Virus record (IMG/VR): IMGVR_UViG_3300042483_000388 | Length of the DNA: 64,000 nucleotides | Strand: one strand, 5' to 3' | Origin: a virus | Lineage: Duplodnaviria > Caudoviricetes | Part shown: in pieces, positions 1,900-53,140 of the stretch | Layout: every line of letters starts with the position of its first letter | Numbering within the stretch: the first letter of the stretch is position 1 | Notes under the pieces: generated by a model | What the model saw: the letters and a program-made list of their open reading frames with translations, nothing else | Databases searched by the model: none | What the model was told of the DNA's origin: nothing | Translations under genes and position numbers: made by a program

Positions 1900-1925
1900 C
1901 AAAACATTTTAAAAAAATAACTATT

Positions 1926-37850: not shown

Positions 37851-37852
37851 AA

Positions 37853-38908: not shown

Positions 38909-38915
38909 ACTTAAA

Positions 38916-39828: not shown

Positions 39829-40552
39829 ATTCTGATAATATTTTAGTAATTAATGGGTTTCTAACGTTCTTAGCGTCCCTAAAATCATAAACACCAATGT
39901 CCGGAACATTACTGAATTTTTGTATTGCGTCGTATAGTCCTGATTGTTTTTTATCTTTATACCTATCCGTCTGCTCAAGATCACCAGATATAAAGAATTT
40001 ACTATTATACCCTATCCTTGTCAATAGTAGTTTCATTTGATTGGGGGTTGAATTTTGAGCCTCCTCAAAAATTAGGATTGAGTTGTCTATATTCATACCT
40101 CTCATATAGGCTAAAGCAAACACCTCAATAATTTCGGCCTTCTTTAATTCTTCCCTTGATTCTTTACCAATAATTTTATTTAATAAATAATAGGAGGGGA
40201 ATATATATGGATCCAATTTTTCTTCAAGACCTCCGGGAAGGCTACCTAATTTCTCTTCTGCCTCAACCGCCGGTCTAACAATTATTATTTTCTCATATGA
40301 GTTGTTTGTATCCACTAAAAGATCGACTGCCGCCTTCATTGCGATAAAACTCTTACCAACACCTGCAGGTCCCGAAGCAACCGTAATTTGATTATTCTTT
40401 AAAATGTTATAATAATCTTCTTGGTGTTCAGATAAAAATTTATTTTTTTGTTTCCGTTTAATTATTGAGTTAATTAAATCCTTTTTTGAAAAAGGTTTAG
40501 AATCTTTAGTCTCCAATTTAATTATTGGATCTGGTTTTTTTCTTATTGCCAT
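39806..40552 (-). CDS. phoH: PhoH family ATPase
   Basis: GPAGVGKS, RPAVEAEEKLGSLPG, YMRG, EEAQN, GDLEQTD. Confidence 0.92.
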   Translation of the reverse strand: MAIRKKPDPIIKLETKDSKPFSKKDLINSIIKRKQKNKFLSEHQEDYYNILKNNQITVASGPAGVGKSFIAMKAAVDLLVDTNNSYEKIIIVRPAVEAEEKLGSLPGGLEEKLDPYIFPSYYLLNKIIGKESREELKKAEIIEVFALAYMRGMNIDNSILIFEEAQNSTPNQMKLLLTRIGYNSKFFISGDLEQTDRYKDKKQSGLYDAIQKFSNVPDIGVYDFRDAKNVRNPLITKILSEYDKENRD

Positions 40553-40555
40553 ATT

Positions 40556-40999
40556 TTAATTAATAAATCTTTTTTTACTCTCACCATCATAGATTTTTTT
40601 TCTAAGGTTTGTTGTTGAGTAATTATGGTCACGTTTATTGTATATAATTCTAATCCCCCTCTTTTGACAAATACTTTTTCCCGTGTAGTCAATGTCTTTA
40701 TAATCCTCACCAATTATTCGGACATCTAAATCCAATGAACTAAAAAGTTCTTCTAACTCATCTTCAGTATTGTAGGGGATTATCTTATCAACATATTTAA
40801 CCGCATCCAATTGCAAGTATCTTTCTACAAGGGATTGGATTGGTTTATTTTTATCTTTTCTATCTATTGTAGGATCGTTCTGTAATGCACATATTAAATA
40901 ATCACAATGTTTTTTACATTCTTCTAACATAATGATATGTCCTGTATGTAGGAGATCAAAAGTACTACATGTTATTCCTACCGTTTTATTTTTTTCCAT
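40556..40999 (-). CDS. cytidylyltransferase (TagD/RfaE-like)
   Basis: TFDLLHTGH (HxGH); GEDY; RDHNYSTT. Confidence 0.88.
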   Translation of the reverse strand: MEKNKTVGITCSTFDLLHTGHIIMLEECKKHCDYLICALQNDPTIDRKDKNKPIQSLVERYLQLDAVKYVDKIIPYNTEDELEELFSSLDLDVRIIGEDYKDIDYTGKSICQKRGIRIIYNKRDHNYSTTNLRKKIYDGESKKRFIN

Positions 41000-41966
41000 A
41001 ATATTCTAACCAATAATTTATCATTTCATCTAACATTGTTTCAAATGTATATTTTGGTTTCCATTTTAACTCATTTCTAAGTTTAGATGAATCACCTTTT
41101 AAATCATAAAGTTCCTCAGGTCTAAAATGTTTTTCATTGACTTCAATATAATTAGTAAAATCTAAACCTATTTTTGAAAATGTGTAGTCACATAAATCTT
41201 TTACTGAGTGAGATATACCGGTAGAGCACACATAATCATCTGGTTTGTCAGTTTGTAACATCATCCACATTGCTTCAACATAATCTTTAGCGTGACCCCA
41301 ATCTCTTGTAGCGTCTAAATTGCCTAAATATAACTTATCTTGTAACCCTAATTTAATTCTAACCGCAGCTTTTACGACTTTATTGGTTACGAAATTTGTC
41401 CCTCTTCTTGGTGATTCGTGGTTGAATAATATTCCATTCCATATTTTCATACCATAAGAGTTTCTATAATTTCTACAAATGTTGTATGAAAATACTTTAG
41501 CACAACCATATGGTGAGACCGGATTTAATTGTGTTGTTTCTCTTTGGAACCCGTCATCATCAATAGTATTACCAAACATTTCTGATGATGAAGCTTGATA
41601 AATTTTTATTTTTGTGTCAACTAATTTACATGCTTCTAAAACGTTTAATGTTCCTAAACCAGTTACATTTGCCGTATATATTGGTTGGTCAAAAGATATT
41701 CTAACGTGAGATTGTGCTGCCAAATTATAAACCTCTTGAGGTTTAATTTCACTAATTACTCTAATTATTGATGATAAGTCGGTTAGATCTGCGTAATGTA
41801 AATTTAATTTATCGAAAACACTATCTAATCTTGATGTTTGATTTTCAGATACCGAATTTCTTTTTAAAGTTCCATGAACTTCATACCCTTTTTCTAATAA
41901 TAACTCAGCAAGATATGATCCGTCTTGACCATTTATCCCTGTAATGAGTGCCACTTTTTTATCCAT
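40986..41966 (-). CDS. gmd: GDP-mannose 4,6-dehydratase
   Basis: GINGQDGSYL, LAAQSHV, ASSSEMFG, YGCAK, FNHESPRRG. Confidence 0.95.
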   Translation of the reverse strand: MDKKVALITGINGQDGSYLAELLLEKGYEVHGTLKRNSVSENQTSRLDSVFDKLNLHYADLTDLSSIIRVISEIKPQEVYNLAAQSHVRISFDQPIYTANVTGLGTLNVLEACKLVDTKIKIYQASSSEMFGNTIDDDGFQRETTQLNPVSPYGCAKVFSYNICRNYRNSYGMKIWNGILFNHESPRRGTNFVTNKVVKAAVRIKLGLQDKLYLGNLDATRDWGHAKDYVEAMWMMLQTDKPDDYVCSTGISHSVKDLCDYTFSKIGLDFTNYIEVNEKHFRPEELYDLKGDSSKLRNELKWKPKYTFETMLDEMINYWLEYYGKK

Positions 41967-43107
41967 TTACGATATTTGTAATTATTTTAATTTGATCTTC
42001 AGTTAAATCTTGGTGGTTTGGTATATAAAACCCAAATTCATTAATTTTTTCACAATTTGGTAAACTAACTTTACCAAATCTTTCATACCACATTGGTTTT
42101 TTTGACATATCACCAGCAATCAAAGGTCTAACTTCAATTCCTTCTGACGTTAATCTATCAACTATTTCTTTTTTATTTTTGGACACAATAGGTAGTGCAA
42201 AATTTGAAACAAAATCACCCTCTCTCTCAAATAAATTTAATTCGTTAATCTTAATTAAATTATTATATTGTTTAAAATTAATGTTCCTTAATTTTGAATA
42301 GTTGTCTAATTTGTCCAATGATCTAATACCAATAAATGCCTGTAAATCAGTTGATCTTAAATTAAGTCCTGGTACGTAAAAATTATATAAAGAATCAAAA
42401 TCACTAACTGAGTATTTTTCCCTTAATTCTTTTTGTTTCCATTCAGGTAGATCCCTATCCCAACCGTGACTCCTCATCATTAGTAATAGGTGGTAAAAAT
42501 CCTCATCATTTGTGTTAATAAATCCACCCTCAATTGTACTTAAGTGATGACCAAAATACATTGAGAAAAATGATGCGAACCCAAATGAACCTAAATATTT
42601 TCCTTGGAATTTAGATCCCATACTTTCACAAACGTCCTCAAATAATATAACTTCGTATTTTTCACAAAGTGATAAAACTTTATCCATCTCAGGAACTAAA
42701 CCTAATGGGGAAACAAGTATCATAGATGAAGGATTATGGATTTTAAATAAATCTTCAAGGTAATTTAAGTCACACGATAAATCGGTTAAGTTACAATCAC
42801 ACATTATTGGTTCCATACCTAATAAAATTGGTGAACTAACGTCAGTTGCCCAACTCAAACTTGGGATAATAATCTTTTTATTTTTTATCTTTTTACTCTC
42901 GAGTAATGCCGCCAATGCCAATAGAATTGCTGACGATCCTGAGTTAACATAAACAGAATATTTTGTCCCTATTTTTTTTGCCCATTTAGATTCTAATTCC
43001 CAAGTCAAATCACCCTTAGTTAATCTTGGTATTTCTGATTGACTTAACCACTCAATCAAAGAATTAATATCATCTTTGTTTATGGTGTCACTTACTAATT
43101 TTATCAT
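41959..43107 (-). CDS. PLP-dependent GDP-4-keto-6-deoxymannose 3-dehydratase (ColD-like; DegT fold)
   Basis: EDVCES; SMYFGHHLSTIEGG has His instead of the Schiff-base Lys; RSHGWDRDLP. Confidence 0.75.
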   Translation of the reverse strand: MIKLVSDTINKDDINSLIEWLSQSEIPRLTKGDLTWELESKWAKKIGTKYSVYVNSGSSAILLALAALLESKKIKNKKIIIPSLSWATDVSSPILLGMEPIMCDCNLTDLSCDLNYLEDLFKIHNPSSMILVSPLGLVPEMDKVLSLCEKYEVILFEDVCESMGSKFQGKYLGSFGFASFFSMYFGHHLSTIEGGFINTNDEDFYHLLLMMRSHGWDRDLPEWKQKELREKYSVSDFDSLYNFYVPGLNLRSTDLQAFIGIRSLDKLDNYSKLRNINFKQYNNLIKINELNLFEREGDFVSNFALPIVSKNKKEIVDRLTSEGIEVRPLIAGDMSKKPMWYERFGKVSLPNCEKINEFGFYIPNHQDLTEDQIKIITNIVNG

Positions 43108-43178
43108 GATCTTTTTTTTATTAATCGTAATTGATGATTGATTTAAGTAAATTAAAGATAAATCTATTTTTTATTGTC

Positions 43179-43952
43179 TTAAACGTCTTCCCATGTGTGT
43201 AATGATATTGACACTGAATCATTATTTTTATAGTCATCTAAAATTTTAATAATTTCTTGTTCGGTATAATTTAAAGGATATGTCTTACCCATTAATGTTG
43301 TTTGTACGTTTTTTTCTATATGATACCCTAAATCATGTTTGAGGCACCAATTTGCATAACAATCTTGTTCAGTAGGGTAACTACTTAAATTAATGTTTTC
43401 ACATGCAACTTTAAAAAAATGATTAAAATTATCGTAATTTCCTAACATTTTTTTGGTTAGTCTTTTATCGTACATCATAAAATCAATTATAAATGAGTCA
43501 TCACCAACTCTTTCTAAATCAAACATTTTTTTACTAAAATTAAAATAAGGTTGATGATAATGAGAATGTTGGGGTGACATAAAAAATATTGGTTTATTAT
43601 CAGTTGTAAACAAATTAATAGGTTTTACAAAAAAGTTATCCGACTGTATGTCTAAATAATAGTTTTGTTCGGTTACATCTTGAAATAAGGCGATAAACGT
43701 TGCGAAACACCAATTTTTTCTATACGGGATATTATTTCTGTCACACCCTGGAAATACATCATCATCTTTAACTACCACAATTTTGTCTTCATAATCAGTG
43801 CCCTCAGGTTTATACCCGTCAGGATTTATTAAGAAGATTTTACTTGGTTGCGGATTTAAAAATTTTATCGAATTTATTACTAATTTTAATTTTACGTAAT
43901 CTTTCGTTCCTGATTTTATGGTAACATCATACTTATTTGATTCTTTCATCAA
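43179..43952 (-). CDS. putative GT-A fold glycosyltransferase
   Basis: KDYVKLKLVINSI; YLDIQSDNFFVKP; PTEQDCY. Confidence 0.55.
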   Translation of the reverse strand: MMKESNKYDVTIKSGTKDYVKLKLVINSIKFLNPQPSKIFLINPDGYKPEGTDYEDKIVVVKDDDVFPGCDRNNIPYRKNWCFATFIALFQDVTEQNYYLDIQSDNFFVKPINLFTTDNKPIFFMSPQHSHYHQPYFNFSKKMFDLERVGDDSFIIDFMMYDKRLTKKMLGNYDNFNHFFKVACENINLSSYPTEQDCYANWCLKHDLGYHIEKNVQTTLMGKTYPLNYTEQEIIKILDDYKNNDSVSISLHTWEDV

Positions 43953-44871
43953 TTAAACTTATTTGTTTTTTATATTCTAACAATCCTTCAAATGTTTCTG
44001 GGGAAATATAGTTGATAATACTCATAGGGTTCTCCTTTAAATCTTTTAATAGATTTAAAGTGTGTACATTACCTAATATCTCGTCCTTAAAATCTTTTGT
44101 TTCATCATGAACATGTCTATCGTGTCTTACATCGACTTCAGTGTATACCATTTTAAATCCACAAGATTGGTTATAAAAAGATGCCCAAATATCTGTCATT
44201 CTTCCTGTTCTAGCCATCATAAAATATTCTTTGGATGCTTTTCTTGATAAAATAGTATTTTGTGAATTAAATGGTGAAAATGTGTTTGTTGAGATTGGGA
44301 AACCAATTTTTAAAAAGTCACATTTTGGTAAATGTTCCATCCTACAAATTGCATCAATATCTGGTTCATTATTCCAAAGACCTGATTGTACATCGGGTAT
44401 AACCACTTTTTTATTCATTACATATTCATTTCTATTTTTTAATAATTGTAATGGATATCCTCTATGCCACAATTGAGGGTAATTTGTATGGTAAAGAGGG
44501 TCAAAACATAATCTATTAGTTTCATAATGAAAAACTTCAACTTCCTTACCTATTAAAATATTTTTACCCCAATTTTCTAAAGGGACATTATCATCATCAA
44601 CAATAGCGATTAAATCGGCACCTCTTTCATATGCTTCTAACACACCTAAAGTTTTTCTTTCGGCGCAATTCCACCCAATAAGGTTACTTAAAGTTGGCCA
44701 TTTGGTACTTTGATATTCAATTGTTAAATAATCACAATTTATCTCATCATATAATTCTTTTGGTGTTTTAAGATCTCCAACAACAATAAAATCCCACCCT
44801 TCCATGTTTGAATACTTAATTGTTGCCTCAGTTGGTGCGCTTATAGTCGTTGTTACAATTATTTTTTTCAT
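43933..44871 (-). CDS. STELLO/RGP-like GT-A protein
   Basis: IVTTTI, VVGDLKTP, IVDDDN, RGYP, PDIDAI, SPFNSQNT, DIWASF. Confidence 0.7.
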   Translation of the reverse strand: MKKIIVTTTISAPTEATIKYSNMEGWDFIVVGDLKTPKELYDEINCDYLTIEYQSTKWPTLSNLIGWNCAERKTLGVLEAYERGADLIAIVDDDNVPLENWGKNILIGKEVEVFHYETNRLCFDPLYHTNYPQLWHRGYPLQLLKNRNEYVMNKKVVIPDVQSGLWNNEPDIDAICRMEHLPKCDFLKIGFPISTNTFSPFNSQNTILSRKASKEYFMMARTGRMTDIWASFYNQSCGFKMVYTEVDVRHDRHVHDETKDFKDEILGNVHTLNLLKDLKENPMSIINYISPETFEGLLEYKKQISLIDERIK

Positions 44872-45782
44872 AGTTCGTTTTTATAAGTATTATAATGACA
44901 TTTAATTCCTTCTTTTAAAGTTGTAAATTTATAATCAGGTATTAGTTTTCTAAACTTAGTAATATCCAAATCTTTCCTATATTGACCATTTGGTTTTGAT
45001 TTATCGTATCTTATCTCAAGTTTTGAGTTTGTTGCTTCTAAAGCAATTTCAGCAATTTGGTTAATTGTAATATTTTCCTCAGTTGCTAAATTAAATGATT
45101 CGGTTATATCTCTGTCAATAATTATTTTTATTATATTTGCAATATCATTTGCGTGTATAAATTGTCTTAGGGATTCTCCATTACCATATAAAGTTATATG
45201 ATCTTCATTATTTTTATTTGCTTCAAAAATTTTTTTAATAAGTGCTGTCACAAAATGACTTCTATTTTCGTCGTCTTTGTCTGATTCACCATATAAATTA
45301 CAAGGCGATATGTAACTATAATTGGTTTCATATTGTTCATTACAGGTGTCAATTTGAACCGCAAGAGATCTTTTTGCCATACCATATGAAAAGTTAGTTT
45401 TAGTTGGTGGTCCATTATGTAAAACATCCTCTTTCATAGGGTATTCATCCACTGTGTCAGGAAATATACAACTACTTAATACACCTAAAAATCTTTTTAC
45501 ACGATTAAGTCTTGCGTACTTAACCATTAATGTATTCATTAAAATATTGTCCTCAAAGTACTCTAAAGGGTGGTTAATATTATCAATTATTCCGCCTACC
45601 CTTGCGGCGAGATGTACCACATAGTCAGGTTCTAATTCTTTATATAATCGTATTACTTCCGATTCTAAAATTAAGTTATAATCTTTTGATGAAAGAAAAG
45701 TCGCATTTGGCATAATTTTTTTTAAGTGATTACCGACCAAACCAGAACCACCTGTTACTACTATTTTCATATTTTTATCCAA
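44868..45782 (-). CDS. fcl: GDP-L-fucose/GDP-L-colitose synthase (Fcl/ColC family)
   Basis: GGSGLVG, HLAARVGG, SSCIFP, YGMAKR, NLYG. Confidence 0.85.
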   Translation of the reverse strand: MDKNMKIVVTGGSGLVGNHLKKIMPNATFLSSKDYNLILESEVIRLYKELEPDYVVHLAARVGGIIDNINHPLEYFEDNILMNTLMVKYARLNRVKRFLGVLSSCIFPDTVDEYPMKEDVLHNGPPTKTNFSYGMAKRSLAVQIDTCNEQYETNYSYISPCNLYGESDKDDENRSHFVTALIKKIFEANKNNEDHITLYGNGESLRQFIHANDIANIIKIIIDRDITESFNLATEENITINQIAEIALEATNSKLEIRYDKSKPNGQYRKDLDITKFRKLIPDYKFTTLKEGIKCHYNTYKNEL

Positions 45783-46537
45783 TTATCACAATAAATATCA
45801 TTAGTGGGAACGTCCAATAATTTCCCAAACCAAATAGATGGTGATATTATTTTTTTATTTATGTTATTATTTAACCAAGCTCCCCACCAACTAAATGTTG
45901 AGTTTGATATTATATTATGATCACATAACGACATCATATATAAGTCATTAATATTACCTTCATTTTCAATATAATTGATGTTATTAAAATTTAAATTGTT
46001 TTTACACCAATTTATATCATCAGAAAAAATTGCAACATTTATATTGTTATTGTTTATTATGTCATAACCATCTTTATAATAATTAATTGTTTGTGTCGGG
46101 TGGTGATCTGGTAGGTTTAAATAATCACCTCTTCTAACATGAATACATAATGTCGGTTCATTTAAAAATATATATTTTTTAAAAAAATATTCTTTTAAAT
46201 TTTCAGGTATACTTAATTCTTCTCTAATTATTTTTTTGTTTTCCTTAAAATATTTTTCAGACTGCCAATAACCATCTAAATATGAGTTATCGTTAATTTC
46301 TTTGTATGTAAAATTGTCAATAACTCTGTTTAGTTGTGTATTATTTGTTGAGGAGTTAATTATTATATTTTTGAATTTATCTAATTCCATTCCTCGACTA
46401 TTCACATCAAAACTACTTTTACCAATATGTGTTAAATCAAAATAATATTCGGTATTGTATTTAATTGAAAGATTTCTAGTGACTGCCCATTGAAATAATT
46501 GATTACCCAACCCTCCTTGTAGTTTTGTTGTTATCAT
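45767..46537 (-). CDS. alpha-1,2-fucosyl(colitosyl)transferase, GT11
   Basis: GGLGNQLFQ, GYWQSEKYF, HVRRGDY, NSTFSWWGAWL. Confidence 0.92.
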   Translation of the reverse strand: MITTKLQGGLGNQLFQWAVTRNLSIKYNTEYYFDLTHIGKSSFDVNSRGMELDKFKNIIINSSTNNTQLNRVIDNFTYKEINDNSYLDGYWQSEKYFKENKKIIREELSIPENLKEYFFKKYIFLNEPTLCIHVRRGDYLNLPDHHPTQTINYYKDGYDIINNNNINVAIFSDDINWCKNNLNFNNINYIENEGNINDLYMMSLCDHNIISNSTFSWWGAWLNNNINKKIISPSIWFGKLLDVPTNDIYCDNWIKI

Positions 46538-47184
46538 AATATTTTAGTTAAATCGTATTGTTTAGTGTTAAAATTACTATTACTATGTACTCTATGTAAC
46601 AATAAATTTTCTGGTATATTAAAAAATGTTTTATTATTTCTCATTAACCTTAACCAAAAATCATAATCCTCAATCCCGTCCAAATCCTCTCTCCACCCAT
46701 CAATTTCTAAAGAGTCTGATTTTTTAAAAATCGCACTAGTATTAGCAATTTGATTTACACCCAAAAATGAATTTTTCTTAATATCTTCATCTTGTGTTGA
46801 TAATAAAGGGGATCCTATGATAATATCGTTACTATCTATATAGTTAATAAAAGTTCCTATAACATCATAATTATTAATATAATTTAATTGTTTTTCTAAT
46901 TTAGTGGTAACCCAAATATCATCATCATCTTGTATGGCAATCCAACCATATTTTGATTCTATTAATAGTTTGTTTAATGTTTTTGATTTACCCTTTTCAT
47001 CACCGTAATCAAATATTCTAATTCTACCATCGTTAAATTTATTTACAATTTCTTTTGAGTTGTCTGTTGTACCATTAAACCCAATTAATAATTCAAAATC
47101 TTTAAAAGTCTGATTTAATATGGACTCAATTGATTTTTTAATAAATTTTTCACCGTTATATGTTGCTAGTAATATTGTTACCAT
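46534..47184 (-). CDS. glycosyltransferase, GT2 family
   Basis: LATYNGE, IQDDDD, EDYDFWLR. Confidence 0.88.
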   Translation of the reverse strand: MVTILLATYNGEKFIKKSIESILNQTFKDFELLIGFNGTTDNSKEIVNKFNDGRIRIFDYGDEKGKSKTLNKLLIESKYGWIAIQDDDDIWVTTKLEKQLNYINNYDVIGTFINYIDSNDIIIGSPLLSTQDEDIKKNSFLGVNQIANTSAIFKKSDSLEIDGWREDLDGIEDYDFWLRLMRNNKTFFNIPENLLLHRVHSNSNFNTKQYDLTKIL

Positions 47185-47187
47185 AAC

Positions 47188-47886
47188 TTAATTTCTAAAA
47201 TATTCAAACCCACCATATTTTCGTTTATCTAAAAAAAATATTTTACTATGATCGTGTTTATGGTTTTCATCTGCGGCATAACCTAAAGGTAAAATTAATG
47301 TTGGTGTGTTATTTAAAAAATACCTATTTAAATGAGATTCATCGTGCCATATTGCAATAATACCATTTTTTAGGTCTTTATTGATGTTAGATTCAATCGT
47401 TCTTGATAGGTTTAAAAATTCGGAACTGATTCCACCAAAAAATCCACCACAAAAATATTGATTACTTTCCCCATTTGTAATGTATGCGGTGGAATTTGGG
47501 TTTCTTTCGGGTGTACCTTCACCATTCCCCAAATAAGGGTGTAACGTACCAATAATATTAGATAATATATCTTCAGGGTTTATCTGACCAACAAACAAAC
47601 TATCAGCGTCAATATAAAATGAATAATCATAATTAGAAATAATTTCCTCACATTCATTGAAAAATTTAAACCGGTGTAAGGTTGAGCTAGGCCAAGGGTT
47701 ATGATCCACTTTATGGATTATGTGATCACCCTCAATTTTAATGTCTTCTTGGTCCGTATGAATTAAATAAGTTTTACTAACACTTGGTAAAAAAAAATTT
47801 TCAATGGACGGTATTAACTTATCCAAAAAGAAAATGTATTTATTTGTTGCAATGATATTAACTACTATTTTTAAATTATTTTTCAT
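47188..47886 (-). CDS. GT6 family (ABO-like alpha-1,3-GalNAc/Gal transferase)
   Basis: IATNKY, WPSSTLHRF, YIDAD, YFCGGFFGG, WHDESHLNRY. Confidence 0.9.
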   Translation of the reverse strand: MKNNLKIVVNIIATNKYIFFLDKLIPSIENFFLPSVSKTYLIHTDQEDIKIEGDHIIHKVDHNPWPSSTLHRFKFFNECEEIISNYDYSFYIDADSLFVGQINPEDILSNIIGTLHPYLGNGEGTPERNPNSTAYITNGESNQYFCGGFFGGISSEFLNLSRTIESNINKDLKNGIIAIWHDESHLNRYFLNNTPTLILPLGYAADENHKHDHSKIFFLDKRKYGGFEYFRN

Positions 47887-47910
47887 TATCAGTGTATGTT
47901 ATATTATTTA

Positions 47911-48540
47911 TTACTTTATCAACCATTTATAATCTGTGACCTTATTTTCTATATCGCTAAAACTAACTCTTTGGGTTGCAATTACAGGGTAAAAAGAATA
48001 AACATTTAATGATTTTTGTAATTCAGAATATATCACATCTAATGCGTTATCGTATTTTTTTAATCTTTCTAATATAACATTAAATGATTTTTTATTTATT
48101 GCAACACAGTGAGTGCTAAATGTGTTATGTAATTTGCAAACTTTTTCATTTACTATTAATGGAGGTTTTATTCCCATATGTGTATTATGGTTCCCACCAA
48201 AATATAACATATCCCAATCTTTTGGTAACATATTAAAATATTCGTCCATGTCCCCAACTTGTTTTTCAAACTCAACGTCGTCCTCTAATATTAATATTGA
48301 GTTATAACCATTTTGAATTGATTCCTCTAATATTTGTATGTTTGTTAAAACTAATGCCAACCTTGATGGTGTCATAAAACCTGATGAAGTTTGGGTTAAC
48401 TCTTTTCCGTCTACAGCTTTAAATCTATTAACGTTTGTTAGTTTGTTTTTTTCAAATTCAACAACACATTCACTCCACCTATCTGGTCTACGATCTAAAT
48501 TTACGCAATATGTTTTATCAAAAAATTCTGTTATTTTCAT
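47911..48540 (-). CDS. GT25 family (LgtB/Lex2-like beta-galactosyltransferase)
   Basis: VNLDRRPDRW, FKAVDG, ILEDDV, WDMLYFG. Confidence 0.85.
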   Translation of the reverse strand: MKITEFFDKTYCVNLDRRPDRWSECVVEFEKNKLTNVNRFKAVDGKELTQTSSGFMTPSRLALVLTNIQILEESIQNGYNSILILEDDVEFEKQVGDMDEYFNMLPKDWDMLYFGGNHNTHMGIKPPLIVNEKVCKLHNTFSTHCVAINKKSFNVILERLKKYDNALDVIYSELQKSLNVYSFYPVIATQRVSFSDIENKVTDYKWLIK

Positions 48541-49100
48541 TAGTGTCTTACGTTATAATATACCTCAGGAGTAATAACCCAATTATCTGTTAATTTTTTT
48601 AACTTCATTAAAAAATCAAAGTCTTCTCCATCTCGATTATTATCAAATAATAAGTTATCAAATTTATTTTTGTAACAAAAAGATATTCCAACACGACCAA
48701 AAATAATGTCTTTAATTTTTTGTGGTGGTAACACCAAACCATTTTGATATTTCATTCTCCAAACAACAAAATCATTTTCTAAATATTTTTCACTTAGTGT
48801 TGAGATGTAATTTACGTCTATTGTGTCATCATCATCTAAAAATCCAATCCATTCTGTTTTAACCATTTTAATTCCTACGTTTCTAACCAAACCTGATTGA
48901 CCATTTGCCGGGCCAACCAAACCTGTTTTTGGTATCTCTAAAGTTTTTATTCTTTCGTCTTCAAATCCTTTCCCAACAACGCCATCATATAATATAATTG
49001 CGTTCCAATTTGGATTTGTTTGGTTTAATAACGAATCTACGGTTCTTGTGATTGTTGATCTGTTAAGTGAGGGGATAATAAATGTAATAAAAGGTTCCAT
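48540..49100 (-). CDS. glycosyltransferase, GT2 family
   Basis: IIPSLNR, RNVGI, FLDDDD, GEDFDF. Confidence 0.85.
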   Translation of the reverse strand: MEPFITFIIPSLNRSTITRTVDSLLNQTNPNWNAIILYDGVVGKGFEDERIKTLEIPKTGLVGPANGQSGLVRNVGIKMVKTEWIGFLDDDDTIDVNYISTLSEKYLENDFVVWRMKYQNGLVLPPQKIKDIIFGRVGISFCYKNKFDNLLFDNNRDGEDFDFLMKLKKLTDNWVITPEVYYNVRH

Positions 49101-49101
49101 A

Positions 49102-50601
49102 CTAATTAGTAATTACTGTGTATTTTTTAAATTTTTCAAAATTTTCTTTAATAAATGGGTAAACATGTTCATTAAAATCTTGCATCATTTCTAGCTTATT
49201 GTTCTCAACTTCTCTTGTTTGAGATTCGTGGTGATAAGCAACACATTCTCCATTACAATAATTATAATACCCATTTTTTATAAGTTGTAAACCTAAAATC
49301 GCATCCTCATAACAATGTCTAAAGGACTCGTTAAAGCCACCCATAGTTTCAAAAACTTTTTTTCTTACCATCATTAACGCTGCGGTGTTTCCGCCAACCT
49401 CATCAATACCCGTATTAAATTTATAATATGTTTCCCTATTTAAATGGTCTAATGTATATGCCTTATGTTTTTGTCTCAGAATGATTGAAATACCATCGTG
49501 TTGTACTGTGTTGTTTGAAAAATGTAATCGACACCCAACGGTACCAACCCTATCTTTTGTTTTGAATGTTTTTAACATTCCTGAAATTACATCATTTAAT
49601 AACTCAATATCGTTATTACAGAATAATAAAAATTCATAATTGTTTGGTAAATTTTTTACGACATCATTATTTATTTTGGCATAATTGTAATAATCATATT
49701 CAATTAGAGTTATAGATTTAATATTTTCTTTAATCCAATTTTTTTCCTCATCTGTTGATCCTGTATCCGCAATAAAAATATCATATAGGTTTGAATCACA
49801 ATATTTGTGAATTGAGTCGACACATTCTTTTAACATCTCCACCTTACCTTTCGTTGGTATGATTACCGCAACTTTACCAACATTTTTTATTGGTTTGTAT
49901 TTTACTTGTGGAACATAAACTTCGGATGGTTTAAGATCCAATGGTAATACGTAACCCCACTTCTCAAGGAACTTTACCTTACTATCATAAAATTCTTTAT
50001 TTGGTTGACCAACAGATTCGTGAGTTATTTCAAATGATGAGGTTATACCTAATTTAACGTTATCCAAATAATTTGGCAAACAGAATAGGTGGTCGTAAAA
50101 GTGGAACTTACCAATCGTCTCATCAAAAGTATGTTTGATTTTTGTTTTATCAAATGCGATAAATAACCCATCAATTGTAACAACGGGAATTAAGAATGGT
50201 AATTTTGGTGAGTATTTGTTTATCCATTTTTTTTGACCTTCCGGATGGTGATAAACTTGACCCACCATTGTGTAGTGCATCCTATCCCAATAAACTCCAG
50301 TGTCAGGAAAATAACAAGATCCGGCTTTTCCAATTATACCGAATTCGGGGTTATTAGAAAAATCGTTTAACAATTTTTTGCCCCAATTTTTTTCAAGTTT
50401 TATATCATTATGACAACAAACAACAATATCATAAATTGATTCTGTAATCCCTGAATTATAAACACTAGATAAAGAATATTGGTTATGATTAACGTATTCT
50501 AAAATCTGAACATCTTTAACGCCAACGTTTTGTAACAAATGTTGTTTAAATTTGTTATTGTATTCTTGGTCCTTATGTGTTGAGTAAACTATTGTAATCA
50601 T
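49102..50601 (-). CDS. two-domain glycosyltransferase (GT2-like + GT2)
   Basis: N-domain CCHND/IDG/HFYD; C-domain IIPTK, FCNND, YEDA. Confidence 0.85.
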   Translation of the reverse strand: MITIVYSTHKDQEYNNKFKQHLLQNVGVKDVQILEYVNHNQYSLSSVYNSGITESIYDIVVCCHNDIKLEKNWGKKLLNDFSNNPEFGIIGKAGSCYFPDTGVYWDRMHYTMVGQVYHHPEGQKKWINKYSPKLPFLIPVVTIDGLFIAFDKTKIKHTFDETIGKFHFYDHLFCLPNYLDNVKLGITSSFEITHESVGQPNKEFYDSKVKFLEKWGYVLPLDLKPSEVYVPQVKYKPIKNVGKVAVIIPTKGKVEMLKECVDSIHKYCDSNLYDIFIADTGSTDEEKNWIKENIKSITLIEYDYYNYAKINNDVVKNLPNNYEFLLFCNNDIELLNDVISGMLKTFKTKDRVGTVGCRLHFSNNTVQHDGISIILRQKHKAYTLDHLNRETYYKFNTGIDEVGGNTAALMMVRKKVFETMGGFNESFRHCYEDAILGLQLIKNGYYNYCNGECVAYHHESQTREVENNKLEMMQDFNEHVYPFIKENFEKFKKYTVITN

Positions 50602-51203
50602 AAACCAGTACTTCCAAAACCTTTATCTTCCCTATCTTTGGGTGTTAATTCAACTTTCTCAATAAGGTTAACCCATTTTCCGGCAACAACTGGACATAAT
50701 ACAGCTTGTGCCACTTTTTGTCCTTTTTGTATTTTAATTCTATCTTTTGTTGTGTTAAATAAGATAACTTGTATCTCTCCGGTATAATTTTGATCTACGG
50801 TTCCCGGAGAATTTAAAACCATCAACCCTTGTTTTAACGCTAAACCACTTTTTGATCTTATTTGTATTTCATGTCCCTCAGGAATATCCAAATGTATCCC
50901 TGTTGGTATTAACTTTCTATCAAACCCAAATATCCAAATATCTTCTGAGGAACATAAATCCATACCAGAATCAGACTGATATGCGTATGATGGTGTTATG
51001 GCATCAGGATTTGATTTTCTATAACCTAAATCAAGTTGTGGGATGTAATTATCCATGTCGTCCTCCAAGTCTTTTAAATCAATACCGAAAGAGTCCATTA
51101 TTGTTTTGTAATCAATTTCACCATCATCAATATCGTCCATGTCATCTAATAATCTTATTAAACTATTAATGTCATCTTCATTTATATTTTCATCTTCTAT
51201 CAT
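50598..51203 (-). CDS. dut: trimeric dUTPase with acidic N-terminal extension
   Basis: SGMDL, RSKSG, GTVDQNYTGE, AQAV, RED-KGFGSTG. Confidence 0.93.
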   Translation of the reverse strand: MIEDENINEDDINSLIRLLDDMDDIDDGEIDYKTIMDSFGIDLKDLEDDMDNYIPQLDLGYRKSNPDAITPSYAYQSDSGMDLCSSEDIWIFGFDRKLIPTGIHLDIPEGHEIQIRSKSGLALKQGLMVLNSPGTVDQNYTGEIQVILFNTTKDRIKIQKGQKVAQAVLCPVVAGKWVNLIEKVELTPKDREDKGFGSTGL

Positions 51204-51922
51204 TGTAATGTTTTTAATTTCATTATTGTATCAATTAATACGTCAACATCTCGTTCACAATATTCCGAAATTTCTTTTAATCTATTATGGTCCCAATATG
51301 CGGCATGAACCATTCCACCATTAATTTCTCCGTCTTTTGGTGTTGGAATTTCTAAACAAGCACACATTAAATCTAATGACCCAATTGAGGTATATGATCC
51401 GTATTGCCAAATTTCCTTTGTGTCTATAGCTTTAACCTCCCAAGGCTTTGTATCATAAGATGGGAGAATCTTGGATGGCATAATTCCGTTTATAATCATT
51501 CGTTTTGCCAACATAGGGATATCAAAGTTTTTAAGGTTATGCCCACATAGGTAAAAATCTAATTTATGACAACGATCCAATAGGTTTCTTACATCAATAA
51601 GAAGTTTTTTCTCATCATTACCAGAGAATGTTTGTTTTTTAACGTCTCCGTTATCTAAAACAAATGCCATAGATACACATACAATTTTTGCAAACTCAGG
51701 AACTAATGCCGATCTTCGTTGAAATACCTCATCCATGTGTTCTTCAGTGGACATCATGTCAGTTATCTTGTCTTCGGGGAATCTTTTAAGAAACCAATCA
51801 AAGTATTTCTCAAATTGGTTTGATACAGTTGGGTTTGTTTCTCTACAACTTTGGTAGTCTTTACAACCACCAACTGTTTCAATGTCGATAAATAAAATTT
51901 TTGTTATTGGTATGTTAATCAT
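51200..51922 (-). CDS. 3'-5' exonuclease (PolB-exonuclease-related, DEDD)
   Basis: FIDIET, GHNLKNFDIP, YCERDV. Confidence 0.85.
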   Translation of the reverse strand: MINIPITKILFIDIETVGGCKDYQSCRETNPTVSNQFEKYFDWFLKRFPEDKITDMMSTEEHMDEVFQRRSALVPEFAKIVCVSMAFVLDNGDVKKQTFSGNDEKKLLIDVRNLLDRCHKLDFYLCGHNLKNFDIPMLAKRMIINGIMPSKILPSYDTKPWEVKAIDTKEIWQYGSYTSIGSLDLMCACLEIPTPKDGEINGGMVHAAYWDHNRLKEISEYCERDVDVLIDTIMKLKTLQ

Positions 51923-51925
51923 AAT

Positions 51926-53140
51926 TTAATTTATTAAGGATATGTAAAATTCCGCCCTATTTTTTGTCACAATATTAAGGTCATATTTGTCTTTTACCGT
52001 TTCATATAATCTCTCACCAAGATCGGTAATCATATTTGGATTTTCAACCAACTTTTTAATGTTTTTTGCCCAATCACTATGATTGTTAGTTTCGTTAACC
52101 AACAATGCGTTTCCATCGGTAAACTGACCTTTATCCAATGCGTGTTTCAAGTCAATGGTATAAGGTCCAACATTCGACGCAATTAACGCTTTCTTATAAA
52201 ATCCTGCTTCAATAACCTTCAATTGTGATTTCATTCTATTGAATATATGGTTTTTAATTGGTGCCAATGAAATGTCAAAGTTAGAATAGTTTCTAGCGTA
52301 TTGGTCAACAGGTCTCGTCCAAACTCTAACATAGTTTTCGTTTTGGATTGCCGGATAGTCCCCCTCTTCAAATTTGTCTAAGTAAATTTTATATTCTGGT
52401 GAGATAATTTTATAATCATTGGTAAAAATTTTCTCATACATTACCCAAACCGTTTCATTAGGTTTAATTGGTCTTTGTTTTTTTTCTCCAGTATCTTTAT
52501 TTAATTCGGTAATAACCCCACGAATATCAAATCCACAAATATAATATTGTAACTTATCTTGTATTTGCCCAAGTTTGTTGGTCATTCCATCTAATAACTT
52601 AAGATCGTGTAAGTGGGATGAACCACCCAACCAACCAACTCGTATCTTATCCGATTTTGGTGTGGGTTGATTAAACTGAGGTTCTGTTGGGTCAATTGCG
52701 TTAGGTAAAACAATAACATTCTTATTGATTTTTCTAATTTCGTTGGCAAATAAGTCAGTTGTTGTTGTAACATATGAACACTCCCTTAAATTGTTTACAA
52801 TTTTTGTATTCATATTTTGTTGTCTAATCAATTCATGAATAGGGTGTTCCTTTGTGGGAAGCCAATAGTCATCAATGTCACCAATAACGATAATACCCAT
52901 AGACTTTAACCTTTTTATAAGTTCAGGACATTCATCAATATTCCCAAAACTTCTATGGAAATGAACTATTTGGTATTTTTTCCAATAATTTATGTCATTA
53001 ATTTTTGGTTGGTAATCAATATCAACGTGAAAATCATTTGGATATAAATTTTGTAGTTTAACGTGGGGGTCTACAGATCTGAACTTTCCTACTCCCGACG
53101 TATCTGAGGGGAGACACAATACTTTAATTTTTTCTTTCAT
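51926..53140 (-). CDS. glycosyltransferase, GT-B (GT4-like)
   Basis: DIDDYW, VLPNAID, GWLGGSSH, KSQLKVIEAG. Confidence 0.85.
   Translation of the reverse strand: MKEKIKVLCLPSDTSGVGKFRSVDPHVKLQNLYPNDFHVDIDYQPKINDINYWKKYQIVHFHRSFGNIDECPELIKRLKSMGIIVIGDIDDYWLPTKEHPIHELIRQQNMNTKIVNNLRECSYVTTTTDLFANEIRKINKNVIVLPNAIDPTEPQFNQPTPKSDKIRVGWLGGSSHLHDLKLLDGMTNKLGQIQDKLQYYICGFDIRGVITELNKDTGEKKQRPIKPNETVWVMYEKIFTNDYKIISPEYKIYLDKFEEGDYPAIQNENYVRVWTRPVDQYARNYSNFDISLAPIKNHIFNRMKSQLKVIEAGFYKKALIASNVGPYTIDLKHALDKGQFTDGNALLVNETNNHSDWAKNIKKLVENPNMITDLGERLYETVKDKYDLNIVTKNRAEFYISLIN

What the first reader, a model, noticed from the sequence alone, without database searches (positions are those of the whole stretch)
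45767..48540. GT25 + GT11 + GT6 form a blood-group-A-like glycan assembly line in a phage
Seen: GT25-like, GT6 and GT11 genes are clustered on one strand next to the GDP-deoxysugar genes. The GT6 keeps a DxD motif (YIDAD), and YFCGGFFGG has Gly at the position matching human GTA Gly268. Known: beta-Gal transfer (GT25), alpha-1,2-fucosylation (GT11) and GT6 alpha-1,3-GalNAc transfer build H and then A antigen; GT6 enzymes need a 2'-fucosylated acceptor, and many bacterial GT6s have NxN instead of DxD. Inference: the phage builds an A-like epitope, possibly colitosylated, on virion proteins or on the host surface.
Basis: partly seen in the sequence, partly recalled or inferred. Interest (0 to 1): 0.78.

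Follow-up and report, generated by a model that had tools for sequence, protein, structure and literature searches.

The report
Swappable blood-group-like glycan cassette in phage
A large lake-water phage carries a 7.5-kb swappable gene cassette whose enzymes most likely build a blood-group-A-like sugar cap (with fucose or its relative colitose), a combination already known from cyanophage P-SSM2 but here sitting in a slot that close relatives fill with many different sugar-building gene sets.

Summary
GT11 (45767-46537), GT6 (47188-47886) and a weak but valid GT25 (47911-48540) lie on the minus strand next to GDP-sugar genes. The GT6 has DxD (IDAD), Gly at GTA-268, Cys at 266 and an intact WHDE. 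It belongs to the published minimal DxD GT6 clade (cyanophage P-SSM2, Parachlamydia PaGT6, an assayed A-synthase). The colitose guess holds: the PLP enzyme is ColD-type, with His at the His188 position.

The trio is not co-conserved. Among 80 closest relatives (exonuclease anchor) GT6 is in 0, GT25 in 10 and GT11 in 29. The pairs do hold. GT25, or alternatively a 236-aa GT2, usually sits directly upstream of GT11, and a GT6-GT2 pair is inserted between them in four of the five GT6-bearing island versions. Window 41010-48531 is a replaceable cassette in a hypervariable slot (59 versions in 88 loci).

The target is unproven. The window and three near-complete relatives lack Wzx, Wzy/WaaL and initiating transferases. 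A TibC-type protein heptosyltransferase and a 1,723-aa Gly/Thr/Ser fibre lie just past the window end, so I favour virion glycoprotein. Earlier notes of this scan flagged that fibre system on the same genome. P-SSM2 already shows GT6+GT11+GT25+GMD, so the trio itself is not new.

The parts
41010..48531 (-). Replaceable glycan cassette (about 7.5 kb, nine genes) in a conserved slot of the phage genome
   Evidence: L125 is 90.6% identical to window 57000-48532 and 94.8% identical to 41009-39209, with no homology between. Its slot holds 5.5 kb of other genes: methyltransferases, a GT2, an SDR. L128 breaks at the same 48532 junction.
47911..48540 (-). GT25-family inverting glycosyltransferase (209 aa, EDD motif). 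Candidate beta-Gal transferase that makes the GT11 acceptor.
   Evidence: PF01755 32.8 bits (cut-off 24), profile 2-127/199. 269 homologues, dozens at 72-95% identity. Co-occurs with GT11 in 9 of 10 GT25-bearing loci and lies directly upstream of it in most island versions. Left-arm homology with L123/L140/L150 ends at about 47900-47910. Sugar and linkage are inferred, not tested.
47188..47886 (-). GT6 retaining alpha-1,3 transferase, minimal DxD type (232 aa). Predicted UDP-GalNAc donor and 2'-fucosyl/colitosyl-Gal acceptor.
   Evidence: PF03414 118.5 bits. BoGT6a E=7e-34, human GTA E=4e-28, residue mapping. DxD, His116, Gly148 and WHDE invariant in 122 clade members, Cys146 in 120.
46534..47184 (-). 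GT2 (216 aa), constant partner of GT6. Forms a two-gene GT6-GT2 module.
   Evidence: PF00535 79 bits. 72-81% identical and adjacent to GT6 in L036/L037/L038/L040/L041. Homologue within 10 kb of GT6 in 16/26 viral loci.
45767..46537 (-). GT11 alpha-1,2-fucosyl/colitosyl-transferase (256 aa)
   Evidence: PF01531 97.7 bits. GGLGNQLFQ, HVRRGDY and SNSTFSWWGAW motifs in the sequence. Within 10 kb of GT6 in 20/26 viral GT6 loci.
44868..45782 (-). GDP-fucose-synthase-like SDR (Fcl/ColC type epimerase-reductase). Gene callers start it at the ATG four codons in (about 45770).
   Evidence: Best NCBIfam match is GDP-L-fucose synthase, 190.8 bits, below the cut-off of 500. PF01370 141 bits. 300-aa call.
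43933..44871 (-). Unassigned 312-aa ORF with a DDD motif, STELLO/RGP (GT75)-like by language-model features. A lead only.
   Evidence: No Pfam hit. Atlas nearest clusters are viral, with STELLO/RGP in 10-48% of members. No homologue in any fetched relative.
43179..43952 (-). Unassigned 257-aa ORF, DUF6492-like. A lead only.
   Evidence: PF20102 E=0.017, below cut-off. Atlas nearest clusters are DUF6492, viral. No homologue in relatives.
41959..43107 (-). ColD-type GDP-4-keto-6-deoxy-mannose 3-dehydratase (colitose pathway)
   Evidence: PDB 2gms ColD 194 bits against perosamine synthase 94 bits. GHH aligns with ColD S-H188-H, and the H188N chain 3b8x shows which His that is.
40986..41966 (-). 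GDP-mannose 4,6-dehydratase
   Evidence: PF16363 410.7 bits. TIGR01472 413.7 bits against a cut-off of 415.
48540..50601 (-). Conserved left flank: GT2 (186 aa, 48540-49100) and two-domain GT2 (499 aa, 49102-50601)
   Evidence: Pfam. Conserved in L125 at 90.6% DNA identity and in L123/L140/L150 at 64-74% amino-acid identity.
50598..53140 (-). Conserved left flank: dUTPase, PolB-exo-like exonuclease (the anchor used for the survey), GT1-like 404-aa protein
   Evidence: The exonuclease has 300 relatives in IMG/VR, the best 80 at 73-98%.
37044..40999 (-). Conserved right flank: RfaE-domain-II-like nucleotidyltransferase (40556-40999), PhoH, NT5C-like, 85-aa ORF, GT1-like (37853-38908), weak GT2 (37044-37850)
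   Evidence: Syntenic in L007, L037, L121.
63739..64000 (+). Start of a 1,723-aa collagen-like Gly/Thr/Ser/Asn repeat fibre gene that runs off the window. Candidate glycan acceptor.
   Evidence: L034 (NCBI contig JBFDKO010000325.1) extends the window. G 21.5%, T 21.4%, S 15%, N 10%, 133 NxS/T sites. Followed by a 980-aa fusion with a TIGR04414 Aah/TibC O-heptosyltransferase domain, 283 bits against a cut-off of 200.

Best explanation
Window 41010-48531 is one allele of a hypervariable, gene-by-gene mosaic glycan cassette in a lake-water jumbo phage, very probably of the published 'moraphage' lineage.

Shown: the cassette encodes GMD, a ColD-type 3-dehydratase and an Fcl/ColC-like reductase. 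It also encodes GT25, GT11, a DxD-type GT6 with its constant GT2 partner, and two unassigned GT-like ORFs.

Inferred mechanism: GMD, ColD and the reductase supply GDP-L-colitose and/or GDP-L-fucose. GT25 adds a beta-linked Gal to an inner glycan made by the conserved flanking GTs. GT11 caps that Gal with alpha-1,2 Col/Fuc, giving an H-like epitope. The metal-dependent GT6 then adds alpha-1,3-GalNAc to the same Gal, giving an A-like epitope. The GT2 that always travels with GT6 extends or branches the product.

All enzymes are soluble and the lineage has no lipid-carrier export genes. I therefore think the glycan is most likely assembled in the cytoplasm on a virion protein, the best candidate being the neighbouring Thr/Ser-rich collagen-like fibre. 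That fibre lies next to a TibC-type protein O-heptosyltransferase gene, and that enzyme may prime it. Swapping the cassette changes the terminal epitope, giving phage 'serotypes'.
For: Family assignments above curated cut-offs. GT6 residues: DxD, His116, Thr125, Tyr144, Cys146-Gly-Gly148, Trp180, Glu183 map to the substrate-binding and catalytic residues of GTA and BoGT6a (residue roles from PMC3516806), and are invariant or nearly so in 122 clade members. The assayed clade member PaGT6 is a metal-dependent GalNAc transferase acting on H antigen and 2'-FL only. ColD-type His and score gap. GT11 enzymes use GDP-Col or GDP-Fuc according to supply. Modular layout (GT25 or 236-aa GT2)-[GT6-GT2]-GT11 across relatives: 25 of 27 GT11-bearing versions have one of the two upstream genes, and all 5 GT6-bearing versions have GT11. 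Sharp cassette joints at gene boundaries. GT6-GT11 linkage in 20/26 unrelated viral GT6 loci. No hydrophobic GTs and no ORF with more than 2 hydrophobic segments in the window. No Bac_transf, Wzx or Wzy_C in three 93-97%-complete relatives, with positive controls. TibC-type enzyme above cut-off beside the fibre and in 3/3 near-complete relatives. The island is embedded between the head module and the fibre genes. The block is intact in 20 lake-water runs from 2020 and 2024.
Against: No enzyme was assayed, so donors, acceptors and order of action are inferred from family and neighbourhood. The GT25 match is weak and partial, and GT25 enzymes are not all Gal transferases. The trio is not co-conserved (1 of 59 versions). 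The residue at the GTA-235 / BoGT6a-124 position is ambiguous: Tyr118 beside an indel, whereas alpha3GalT has Trp there. NCBIfam's GT6 subfamily model is missed (177 against 250 bits) and is named 'glucosyltransferase'. It is unknown whether a GT6 accepts a colitosylated Gal. There is only one Fcl-like reductase, so fucose and colitose cannot be told apart. O-antigen GTs are also soluble and could use the host's carrier and export machinery, so absence of Wzx/Wzy does not exclude a host-surface target. The fibre link rests on proximity only. No RNA evidence.
Confidence: 0.5

Rival explanations
1. Host-surface remodelling. The same enzymes act on host undecaprenyl-linked O-unit, capsule or LPS-core intermediates at the inner membrane. 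The host's own flippase, polymerase and ligase export the altered glycan. This changes the infected cell's surface, for example to block superinfection or to stop progeny sticking to debris. It is the classical reading of the cyanophage 'LPS gene' clusters.
For: All characterised bacterial GT6/GT11/GT2 trios work on lipid-linked O-units (PMC4202792). WbgN modifies glycolipids. P-SSM2 carries the same families in a cluster. Soluble GTs are normal for O-antigen synthesis. The hypervariability resembles bacterial O-antigen loci.
Against: No initiating transferase, flippase, polymerase or ligase in the window or in three near-complete relatives. The island lies inside the structural region, between head genes and fibre genes. 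A protein-glycosylating TibC-type enzyme and a Thr/Ser-rich fibre are conserved nearby. A phage with no sign of lysogeny has little time to resurface its host.
Confidence: 0.3
2. Not one assembly line. The GT25, GT11 and GT6 are neighbours because the slot collects GT genes by recombination, but they act on different branches or different glycans. The GT6 may use another donor (UDP-Gal or UDP-Glc) or a non-fucosylated acceptor, so no A-like epitope is made.
For: The trio occurs in 1 of 59 versions, and the GT25|GT6 boundary is a recombination joint. GT6 is absent from 80/80 nearest relatives. The GT6 always travels with a GT2, not with GT25. Tyr118 is unusual at the 235-equivalent position: Cys in 90, Gly in 20, Tyr in 3 of 122. 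The NCBIfam subfamily name is 'glucosyltransferase' and its cut-off is missed. About ten GT-like genes imply a larger, possibly branched glycan.
Against: Every GT6-bearing version in this lineage has GT11, as do 20/26 unrelated viral GT6 loci. The His233 equivalent and the 266/268 small-residue pair are invariant. The assayed clade member needs a fucosylated acceptor and UDP-GalNAc. In most island versions GT25 sits directly upstream of GT11.
Confidence: 0.17
3. DNA hypermodification. The glycosyltransferases decorate modified bases of the phage genome with an oligosaccharide to evade restriction.
For: Phage GTs can hypermodify DNA with diverse glycans (Pyle et al. 2024, cited in PMC12619734). 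The island is flanked by a dUTPase, an exonuclease and an NT5C-like gene.
Against: GT6, GT11, GT10 and GT29 families, deoxy-sugar pathways, sugar methyltransferases and about ten GTs fit a surface-type glycan. The thymidylate-synthase homologue in relatives is full-length at about 300 bits, as expected of an ordinary ThyA and not a hydroxymethylase (this is inference). No hydroxymethyl-pyrimidine pathway was seen, but it was not searched for exhaustively.
Confidence: 0.03

Closest known systems
Prochlorococcus phage P-SSM2 glycan ('LPS') gene cluster, and the GT6+GT11 pairs of many Synechococcus myoviruses
   Same: GMD, Fcl-like epimerases, GT2s, GT1, GT11, DxD-type GT6 and GT25 in one same-strand cluster, annotated in the record. 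GT6 is found in 72 phage records, often beside GT11. Same minimal GT6 clade (PMC3516806).
   Different: GT6 is only 41% identical and the gene order differs. P-SSM2 has Ala at position 266 (YYAGG) where the window has Cys. P-SSM2 has no ColD. The window phage is not a T4-like cyanophage: its terminase is 25-30% identical to anything in the phage collection. Here the genes sit in a defined, hypervariable replacement slot.
Parachlamydia acanthamoebae PaGT6 and Bacteroides ovatus BoGT6a (assayed bacterial blood-group-A synthases)
   Same: GT-A retaining GT6. Same substrate-contact residues: His, Thr, Tyr, Trp, Glu, and Gly at the 268 position. Like PaGT6, a small single-domain enzyme with DxD and no C-terminal membrane-binding domain.
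   Different: BoGT6a has NxN and is metal-independent. The window enzyme has Cys at position 266 where BoGT6a has Ala, and Tyr118 near the acceptor site. The PaGT6 sequence itself could not be fetched, so there is no direct alignment.
E. coli O86 (WbnI GT6, a GT11 fucosyltransferase and a GT2 Gal transferase) and E. coli O55 (ColD/ColC with the GT11 colitosyltransferase WbgN and the GT2 WbgO) O-antigen clusters
   Same: The same enzyme families give B-like (O86) or colitose-capped H-like (O55) epitopes. The colitose pathway uses GMD, ColD and a reductase (O86 gene roles partly from my own knowledge).
   Different: Those are Wzx/Wzy-dependent loci with initiating transferases on a bacterial chromosome. 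Here there is no export machinery. Colitose genes and a GT6 occur together, and the upstream transferase is GT25. A combined colitose plus A-type cap is not known to me from any characterised glycan.
Virus-encoded virion glycosylation: mycobacteriophage capsid/tail glycans (Freeman 2023, cited in PMC12619734), and chlorovirus and mimivirus capsid/fibril glycosylation clusters (my own knowledge)
   Same: Virus-encoded soluble GTs and sugar-nucleotide pathways that decorate virion proteins in the cytoplasm, with lineage-specific gene sets.
   Different: No direct evidence here that virions are glycosylated. The families involved (GT6, GT11, GT25, and GT10/GT29 in relatives) and the allelic cassette slot differ from those systems.
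'Moraphages', aquatic jumbo phages of 200-307 kb (PMC12619734)
   Same: L121, which shares the island's flanks and an 80% GT25, comes from a 244.7-kb contig with the same name (k141_248555) as one listed moraphage. Freshwater origin. Four core GT orthogroups are reported.
   Different: The paper does not mention GT6/GT11, colitose, the variable island or the collagen-like fibre. Membership rests on the contig name and synteny, not on a sequence comparison with the published genomes.

Membership tests
CAZy GT6 / Pfam PF03414 | Profile match above the curated cut-off | tested here: met
   118.5 bits against a cut-off of 25. BoGT6a E=7e-34, human GTA E=4e-28.
CAZy GT6 / Pfam PF03414 | Catalytic Glu (GTA Glu303) in WHDE, and donor-site aromatic/Gly motif | tested here: met
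   W180-H-D-E183 and Y144-F-C-G-G148 align with GTA and BoGT6a. Invariant in 122 relatives.
CAZy GT6 / Pfam PF03414 | Retaining alpha-1,3 transfer of Gal/GalNAc | not testable with these tools
   Needs an enzyme assay.
Minimal DxD-type prokaryotic/phage GT6 clade (P-SSM2, PaGT6; PMC3516806) | DxD retained (not NxN), about 230 aa catalytic domain only, no C-terminal membrane-binding domain | tested here: met
   IDAD aligns with DVD. 232 aa. Relatives are 228-240 aa with D..D invariant.
Minimal DxD-type prokaryotic/phage GT6 clade (P-SSM2, PaGT6; PMC3516806) | Divalent-metal dependence, UDP-GalNAc donor, 2'-fucosylated acceptor | not testable with these tools
   Only the residue proxies could be checked. 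His116 and Leu219 fit the fucosyl-acceptor type. Tyr118 is ambiguous.
NCBIfam NF041524 'family 6 glucosyltransferase' (subfamily) | Score at or above the curated cut-off of 250 bits | tested here: not met
   177.4 bits.
CAZy GT11 / Pfam PF01531 | Profile match above cut-off and the HxRRGDY donor motif | tested here: met
   97.7 bits against 23.9. HVRRGDY, GGLGNQLFQ and SNSTFSWWGAW read in the sequence. The motif roles are from my own knowledge.
CAZy GT25 / Pfam PF01755 | Profile match above cut-off | tested here: met
   32.8 bits against 24, but only profile positions 2-127 of 199. Homologues carry PF01755 in the precomputed annotation.
CAZy GT25 / Pfam PF01755 | Beta-galactosyl transfer (as in LgtB/Lic2A) | not testable with these tools
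   Family members differ in sugar and linkage. Only the adjacency to GT11 supports this.
ColD (GDP-4-keto-6-deoxy-D-mannose 3-dehydratase) | Active-site His in place of the aminotransferase Schiff-base Lys. Closest to ColD among solved DegT-family enzymes. | tested here: met
   GHH aligns with ColD S-H188-H, and 3b8x (H188N) identifies the residue. 194 bits against 105 (E1 dehydrase) and 94 (perosamine synthase).
GDP-mannose 4,6-dehydratase (TIGR01472 equivalog) | Score at or above the curated cut-off of 415 bits | tested here: inconclusive
   413.7 bits, 1.3 below the cut-off. Pfam PF16363 410.7 bits, full length.
GDP-L-fucose synthase Fcl (NF047922 equivalog) / GDP-colitose synthase ColC | Equivalog score at or above 500 bits | tested here: not met
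   190.8 bits, the best of all SDR models. No ColC model or structure was available to separate Fcl from ColC.
Wzx/Wzy-dependent O-antigen or capsule locus | Initiating phosphoglycosyltransferase, flippase, polymerase/ligase encoded with the GTs | tested here: not met
   No multi-pass membrane ORF in the window. PF02397, PF01943 and PF04932 absent from three 93-97%-complete relatives, with positive controls ringing. WecA-type PF00953 was not searched.
Aah/TibC protein O-heptosyltransferase (TIGR04414), for the neighbouring gene just outside the window | Equivalog score at or above 200 bits | tested here: met
   283.1 bits, residues 416-751 of the 980-aa fusion in L034. About 284 bits in 3/3 near-complete relatives.
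'Moraphage' lineage (PMC12619734) | Clustering with the 25 published genomes by TerL/MCP/PolB or AAI | not tested
   Only a contig-name match (k141_248555) for the syntenic relative L121.

The most novel reading that the evidence does not exclude
An abundant lineage of lake jumbo phages has a dedicated 'serotype locus'. This is a recombination slot inside the virion-structure region, with at least 59 alleles among 88 loci. The alleles mix the glycosyltransferase families that vertebrates use for ABH, Lewis and acidic-sugar caps (GT6, GT10, GT11, GT25, GT29) with rare-sugar pathways such as colitose. Its products decorate a collagen-like Thr/Ser-rich virion fibre, perhaps primed by a conserved TibC-type protein heptosyltransferase. 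The virions would then carry a variable glycocalyx, in this allele a colitose-containing blood-group-A-like epitope.
Probability: 0.3. Interest if true: 0.8.

Novelty: new variant of a known kind. Interest (0 to 1): 0.55.

Why it matters
A phage with GT6, GT11 and GT25 is not new in itself: P-SSM2 has had that annotation for years, and the DxD GT6 clade was described in 2010-2012. Three things are added here. First, direct evidence for a colitose pathway coupled to a GT6/GT11 pair. Second, a clear modular grammar, (GT25 or GT2)-[GT6-GT2]-GT11. Third, these genes form one allele of a hypervariable cassette in an abundant, uncultured jumbo-phage lineage that lacks glycan-export genes but conserves a protein-glycosylating enzyme next to a Ser/Thr-rich fibre. 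If the glycan is on the virion, it would be a natural system of phage 'serotypes' built from blood-group-type chemistry. That bears on how phages vary their surface, on the evolutionary reservoir of GT6 enzymes, and on sourcing soluble, metal-dependent A-type and colitosyl transferases for glycan synthesis.

Tried and rejected
1. I first thought the overlooked GT2 (46534-47184), and not GT25, makes the GT11 acceptor, by analogy with the E. coli O86/O55 GT2 Gal transferases. I dropped this after the survey. In GT6-less islands GT25, or a different 236-aa GT2, sits directly upstream of GT11 without this GT2, which only travels with GT6.

2. Perosamine synthase as the identity of the DegT-family gene: rejected.

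3. Host identification through GT6 homologues in 185,579 species genomes. There were 389 hits, none above about 45% identity, in many phyla, so no host signal.

4. Fetching PaGT6 for a direct alignment. It was not among the 80 loci kept, so the comparison rests on the paper's statements.

5. 'Sialyl-Lewis-like' islands in relatives. GT10 and GT29 are Pfam hits from the precomputed annotation only. NCBIfam gives no specific names, and the cytidylyltransferase is ambiguous between pseudaminic-acid and Kdo types. I make no such claim.

6. RNA evidence of expression: no RNA run holds the block. This is not evidence of silence.

8. Structure prediction, complex prediction and read-laying were not used. 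The sequence matches were unambiguous, and no binding claim is made.

Full report
OBSERVATION. The region 45767-48540 holds four co-directional minus-strand genes, not three: GT11 (45767-46537, PF01531 97.7 bits), a GT2 (46534-47184, PF00535 79 bits), GT6 (47188-47886, PF03414 118.5 bits) and GT25 (47911-48540, PF01755 32.8 bits against a cut-off of 24, covering profile positions 2-127 of 199). They lie in a longer minus-strand run. It contains a 186-aa GT2, a two-domain 499-aa GT2, dUTPase, an exonuclease and a GT1-like gene on one side. On the other side are an Fcl-like SDR, two unassigned ORFs, a DegT-family PLP enzyme, GMD, an RfaE-domain-II-like nucleotidyltransferase, PhoH, and further GT1-like and GT2-like genes. 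The window is a phage: terminase, portal, major head protein, six tRNAs. The motif claims hold. IDAD aligns with GTA D211-V-D213, YFCGG with GTA 264-268 (Cys at 266, Gly at 268), and WHDESHLN is intact.

THE GT6. It matches BoGT6a at E=7e-34 and human GTA at E=4e-28. Thiyagarajan et al. (PMC3516806) define a clade of minimal, DxD-bearing GT6 enzymes: cyanophage P-SSM2, marine metagenome homologues and Parachlamydia PaGT6. They show that PaGT6 is a metal-dependent GalNAc transferase acting on H trisaccharide and 2'-fucosyllactose but not on LacNAc. They name three positions that separate fucosyl-acceptor enzymes from alpha3GalT: BoGT6a His122 (Gln in alpha3GT), Gly124 (Trp) and Ile228 (Trp). 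Through the alignment the window enzyme has His116 and Leu219, which fit the fucosyl-acceptor type. The middle position is ambiguous (Tyr118 beside an indel). Thr125, Tyr144, Trp180 and Glu183 match the other contact and catalytic residues. In 122 homologues of 200-260 aa the two Asp of DxD, His116, Gly148 and WHDE are invariant. Position 146 is Cys in 120 and Ala in 2 (P-SSM2 and L007, like BoGT6a). Position 118 varies: Cys 90, Gly 20, His 7, Tyr 3. The enzyme is thus an ordinary member of a large clade: 515 proteins at E<=1e-10, 72 phage records and 389 loci in species-representative cellular genomes, many in Dependentiae and Chlamydiae. It misses the NCBIfam subfamily cut-off (177 against 250 bits).

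THE SUGAR SUPPLY. The PLP enzyme is ColD-type. It scores 194 bits to E. coli O55 ColD against 105 to the CDP-sugar 3-dehydrase and 94 to perosamine synthase. Its GHH aligns with ColD S-H188-H, and the H188N mutant chain 3b8x fixes which His that is. With GMD (PF16363 410.7 bits; TIGR01472 413.7 against 415) and an SDR whose best model is GDP-fucose synthase (190.8 bits, below cut-off), this is the gene set of the GDP-L-colitose pathway. GDP-L-fucose remains possible if the reductase also takes the GMD product. GT11 enzymes (E. coli O55 WbgN, human FUT2) transfer either sugar, so supply decides (PMC11987014).

CO-CONSERVATION. P-SSM2 has GMD, epimerases, two GT2s, GT1, GT11, GT6 and GT25 in one annotated cluster, so the family combination is already on record. 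In 26 IMG/VR loci found through GT6 (at most 50% identity), GT11 lies within 10 kb in 20 and GT25 in 1. In 79 cellular GT6 loci the counts are GT11 28 and GT25 3, using phage-trained profiles that may undercount.

Closer relatives of the GT6 (76-80%: L036/L037, L038, L040/L041) share the window's flanking genes. They read GT2(236 aa)-GT6-GT2(216 aa)-[one small ORF in some]-GT11, with no GT25. Conversely, the window's GT25 has 269 homologues, dozens at 72-95% identity, on contigs up to 259 kb. In their contexts the same flanks enclose GT25-GT11 (L121), GT25 with GT11 and GT10 (L123), or GT25 with GT10 and GT29 (L124), and never GT6.

Anchoring on the conserved exonuclease gave 300 IMG/VR relatives. 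In the best 80 (73-98%) the 10 kb downstream hold GT6 in 0, GT25 in 10, GT11 in 29, GT10 in 19, the 236-aa GT2 in 18 and ColD in 10, in 33 architectures. I then added eight loci chosen for having GT6 or GT25, which makes this set biased, and merged near-identical islands. That leaves 59 versions among 88 loci. GT11 is in 27 of them, and 25 of those also have GT25 or the 236-aa GT2 (both in two cases), usually directly upstream (start-to-start 620-730 bp). All five GT6-bearing versions have GT11. In four of the five the GT6-GT2 pair sits between the upstream gene and GT11; L007 has a different order. Whole-record searches found no GT6 elsewhere in four relatives of 229-291 kb, and a positive control found 4 of 4 known carriers. 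So the pairs GT25-GT11 and GT6-GT11 are linked, but the trio is a single recombinant genotype.

THE CASSETTE. L125 is 90.6% identical to window 57000-48532 and 94.8% identical to 41009-39209. Between these points the window's 7.5 kb is replaced by 5.5 kb encoding two methyltransferases, a GT2, an SDR and unknowns. The joints coincide with the GT2/GT25 and GMD/nucleotidyltransferase gene boundaries. Inside the cassette, homology with L123/L140/L150 runs from the double GT2 through GT25 and stops at about 47900-47910. The GT6-GT2(-GT11) segment matches only L036/L038/L040. ORFs 43179-44871 match no relative. L140's GT25 is 97% identical while its GT11 is 38% identical, so the mosaicism is gene by gene. 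The block 45767-48540 is present at 98% or more of sampled words in 20 lake-water metagenome runs from 2020 and 2024. The exact GT6 protein occurs in 61 collection blocks, with identical gene order in the six contigs shown. This is a stable natural genotype, not an assembly artefact.

LINEAGE. The terminase is only 25-30% identical to anything in the phage collection; the best hits are huge uncultured phages, Flavobacterium phage immuto and Microcystis phage Mel-JY01. Relatives are 229-291 kb. L121 comes from ENA contig k141_248555 (244.7 kb). A genome of the same name is one of 25 'moraphages', aquatic jumbo phages with predicted Bacteroidota hosts and four core GT orthogroups (PMC12619734). 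I take the window to belong to or near that lineage, but this is a name match plus synteny, not a sequence test. That paper does not describe the island.

TARGET. None of the cluster's proteins has a convincing membrane segment, and no ORF in the 64-kb window has more than two hydrophobic stretches. Three 93-97%-complete relatives lack Bac_transf, Wzx-type and Wzy_C/WaaL-type genes, with controls ringing. Earlier notes of this scan pointed to a fibre and protein-targeting GTs beyond the window end, and I checked them. At window 63739 a 1,723-aa ORF begins (G 21.5%, T 21.4%, S 15%, N 10%; 133 NxS/T sites). It is followed by a 980-aa fusion and then a GT9 gene. The fusion's residues 416-751 match TIGR04414 (Aah/TibC protein O-heptosyltransferase) at 283 bits against a cut-off of 200, flanked by GT4-like and FkbM domains. 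The TibC-type gene is present above cut-off in 3 of 3 near-complete relatives. The conserved nucleotidyltransferase at 40556-40999 is most like the ADP-heptose-forming RfaE domain II (81 bits, below cut-off). The island lies between the head module and these fibre genes. Together this tilts me towards a virion glycoprotein target, about 50:30 over host-surface remodelling through host export machinery, but it is inference from gene content and position. DNA hypermodification is unlikely. The families and sugar pathways are of the surface-glycan type, and the thymidylate-synthase homologue in relatives looks like ordinary ThyA.

MECHANISM, WITH STATUS. Shown: family membership, catalytic and specificity residues, ColD-type His, modular gene order, cassette joints, absence of export genes, and the presence of the TibC-type enzyme and fibre. 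Inferred: GT25 adds beta-Gal; GT11 adds alpha1,2-Col/Fuc; GT6 adds alpha1,3-GalNAc to the same Gal; the partner GT2 extends the product; the conserved flanking GTs build the inner glycan; the acceptor is the fibre.

COMPARISON AND NOVELTY. The enzymology works like the E. coli O86/O55, Helicobacter mustelae and Bacteroides ovatus blood-group-mimic systems, and like the P-SSM2 cluster. It is not a Wzx/Wzy-type O-antigen locus, because those defining genes were tested and not found. It is a new variant of a known kind. The known part is phage GT6/GT11 clusters. The new part is the colitose coupling, the (GT25|GT2)-[GT6-GT2]-GT11 grammar, and the hypervariable slot in a jumbo-phage lineage with a conserved protein-glycosylation gene next to a candidate acceptor fibre.

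CAVEATS. All specificities are predicted. The survey profiles for GT11, GT10, GT29 and the GT2 subtypes were built from few sequences and a threshold of 1e-8, so absences other than GT6 and GT25 are soft. IMG/VR loci extend only 10 kb past the anchor. The 59-version count includes eight loci added because they carry GT6 or GT25.

Noticed in passing
window 63739-64000 and beyond (L034:11814-16985): A 1,723-aa collagen-like ORF made of GTS/GTN triplets (133 NxS/T sites) starts at the window's end. It is followed by a 980-aa GT4 / TibC-type heptosyltransferase / FkbM fusion and a GT9 gene.
   Followed up: partly
L123:14335-15138, L124:11910-14175, L124:14172-15929: Alternative island alleles in relatives carry GT10, GT29, an RPE/KpsF-like fusion and a CMP-sugar-type cytidylyltransferase. 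L123 also has LAGLIDADG and NUMOD3 homing-endonuclease genes in and beside the island.
   Followed up: partly
window 43179-44871: Two GT-like ORFs (DUF6492-like and STELLO/RGP-like by Atlas features) have no homologue in any fetched relative. They look like a recent insertion between the Fcl-like gene and ColD.
   Followed up: partly
window 40556-40999: A conserved 147-aa nucleotidyltransferase is most like RfaE domain II (ADP-heptose synthesis) or glycerol-3-phosphate cytidylyltransferase. It could feed the TibC/GT9-type heptosyltransferases.
   Followed up: no
window 11090-13147: A 685-aa Lon/AAA-type ATP-dependent protease homologue (phrog_4871, 779 bits) lies upstream of the head module.
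   Followed up: no
window 25512-27398: The major head protein ORF is 628 aa, but the capsid-protein profile covers only residues 297-605, so there is a long N-terminal extension.
   Followed up: no
window 534-1900: A cluster of six tRNA genes (His, Trp, Ile, Met, Glu, Asp).
   Followed up: no
L042-L120 (genome contigs): DxD-type minimal GT6 genes are far more widespread in cellular genomes than the 2012-2014 papers knew: 389 loci, many in Dependentiae/Babeliales, Chlamydiae, Bacteroidota and Melainabacteria.
   Followed up: partly
G006 (record of L009, 430 kb, direct terminal repeats): A complete 430-kb phage record carries two GT6 genes about 230 kb apart. In G007 the GT6 match contains an internal TAA.
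   Followed up: no
window 50598-51203: The dUTPase has an N-terminal extension of about 60 aa before the dUTPase domain (residues 62-200).
   Followed up: no
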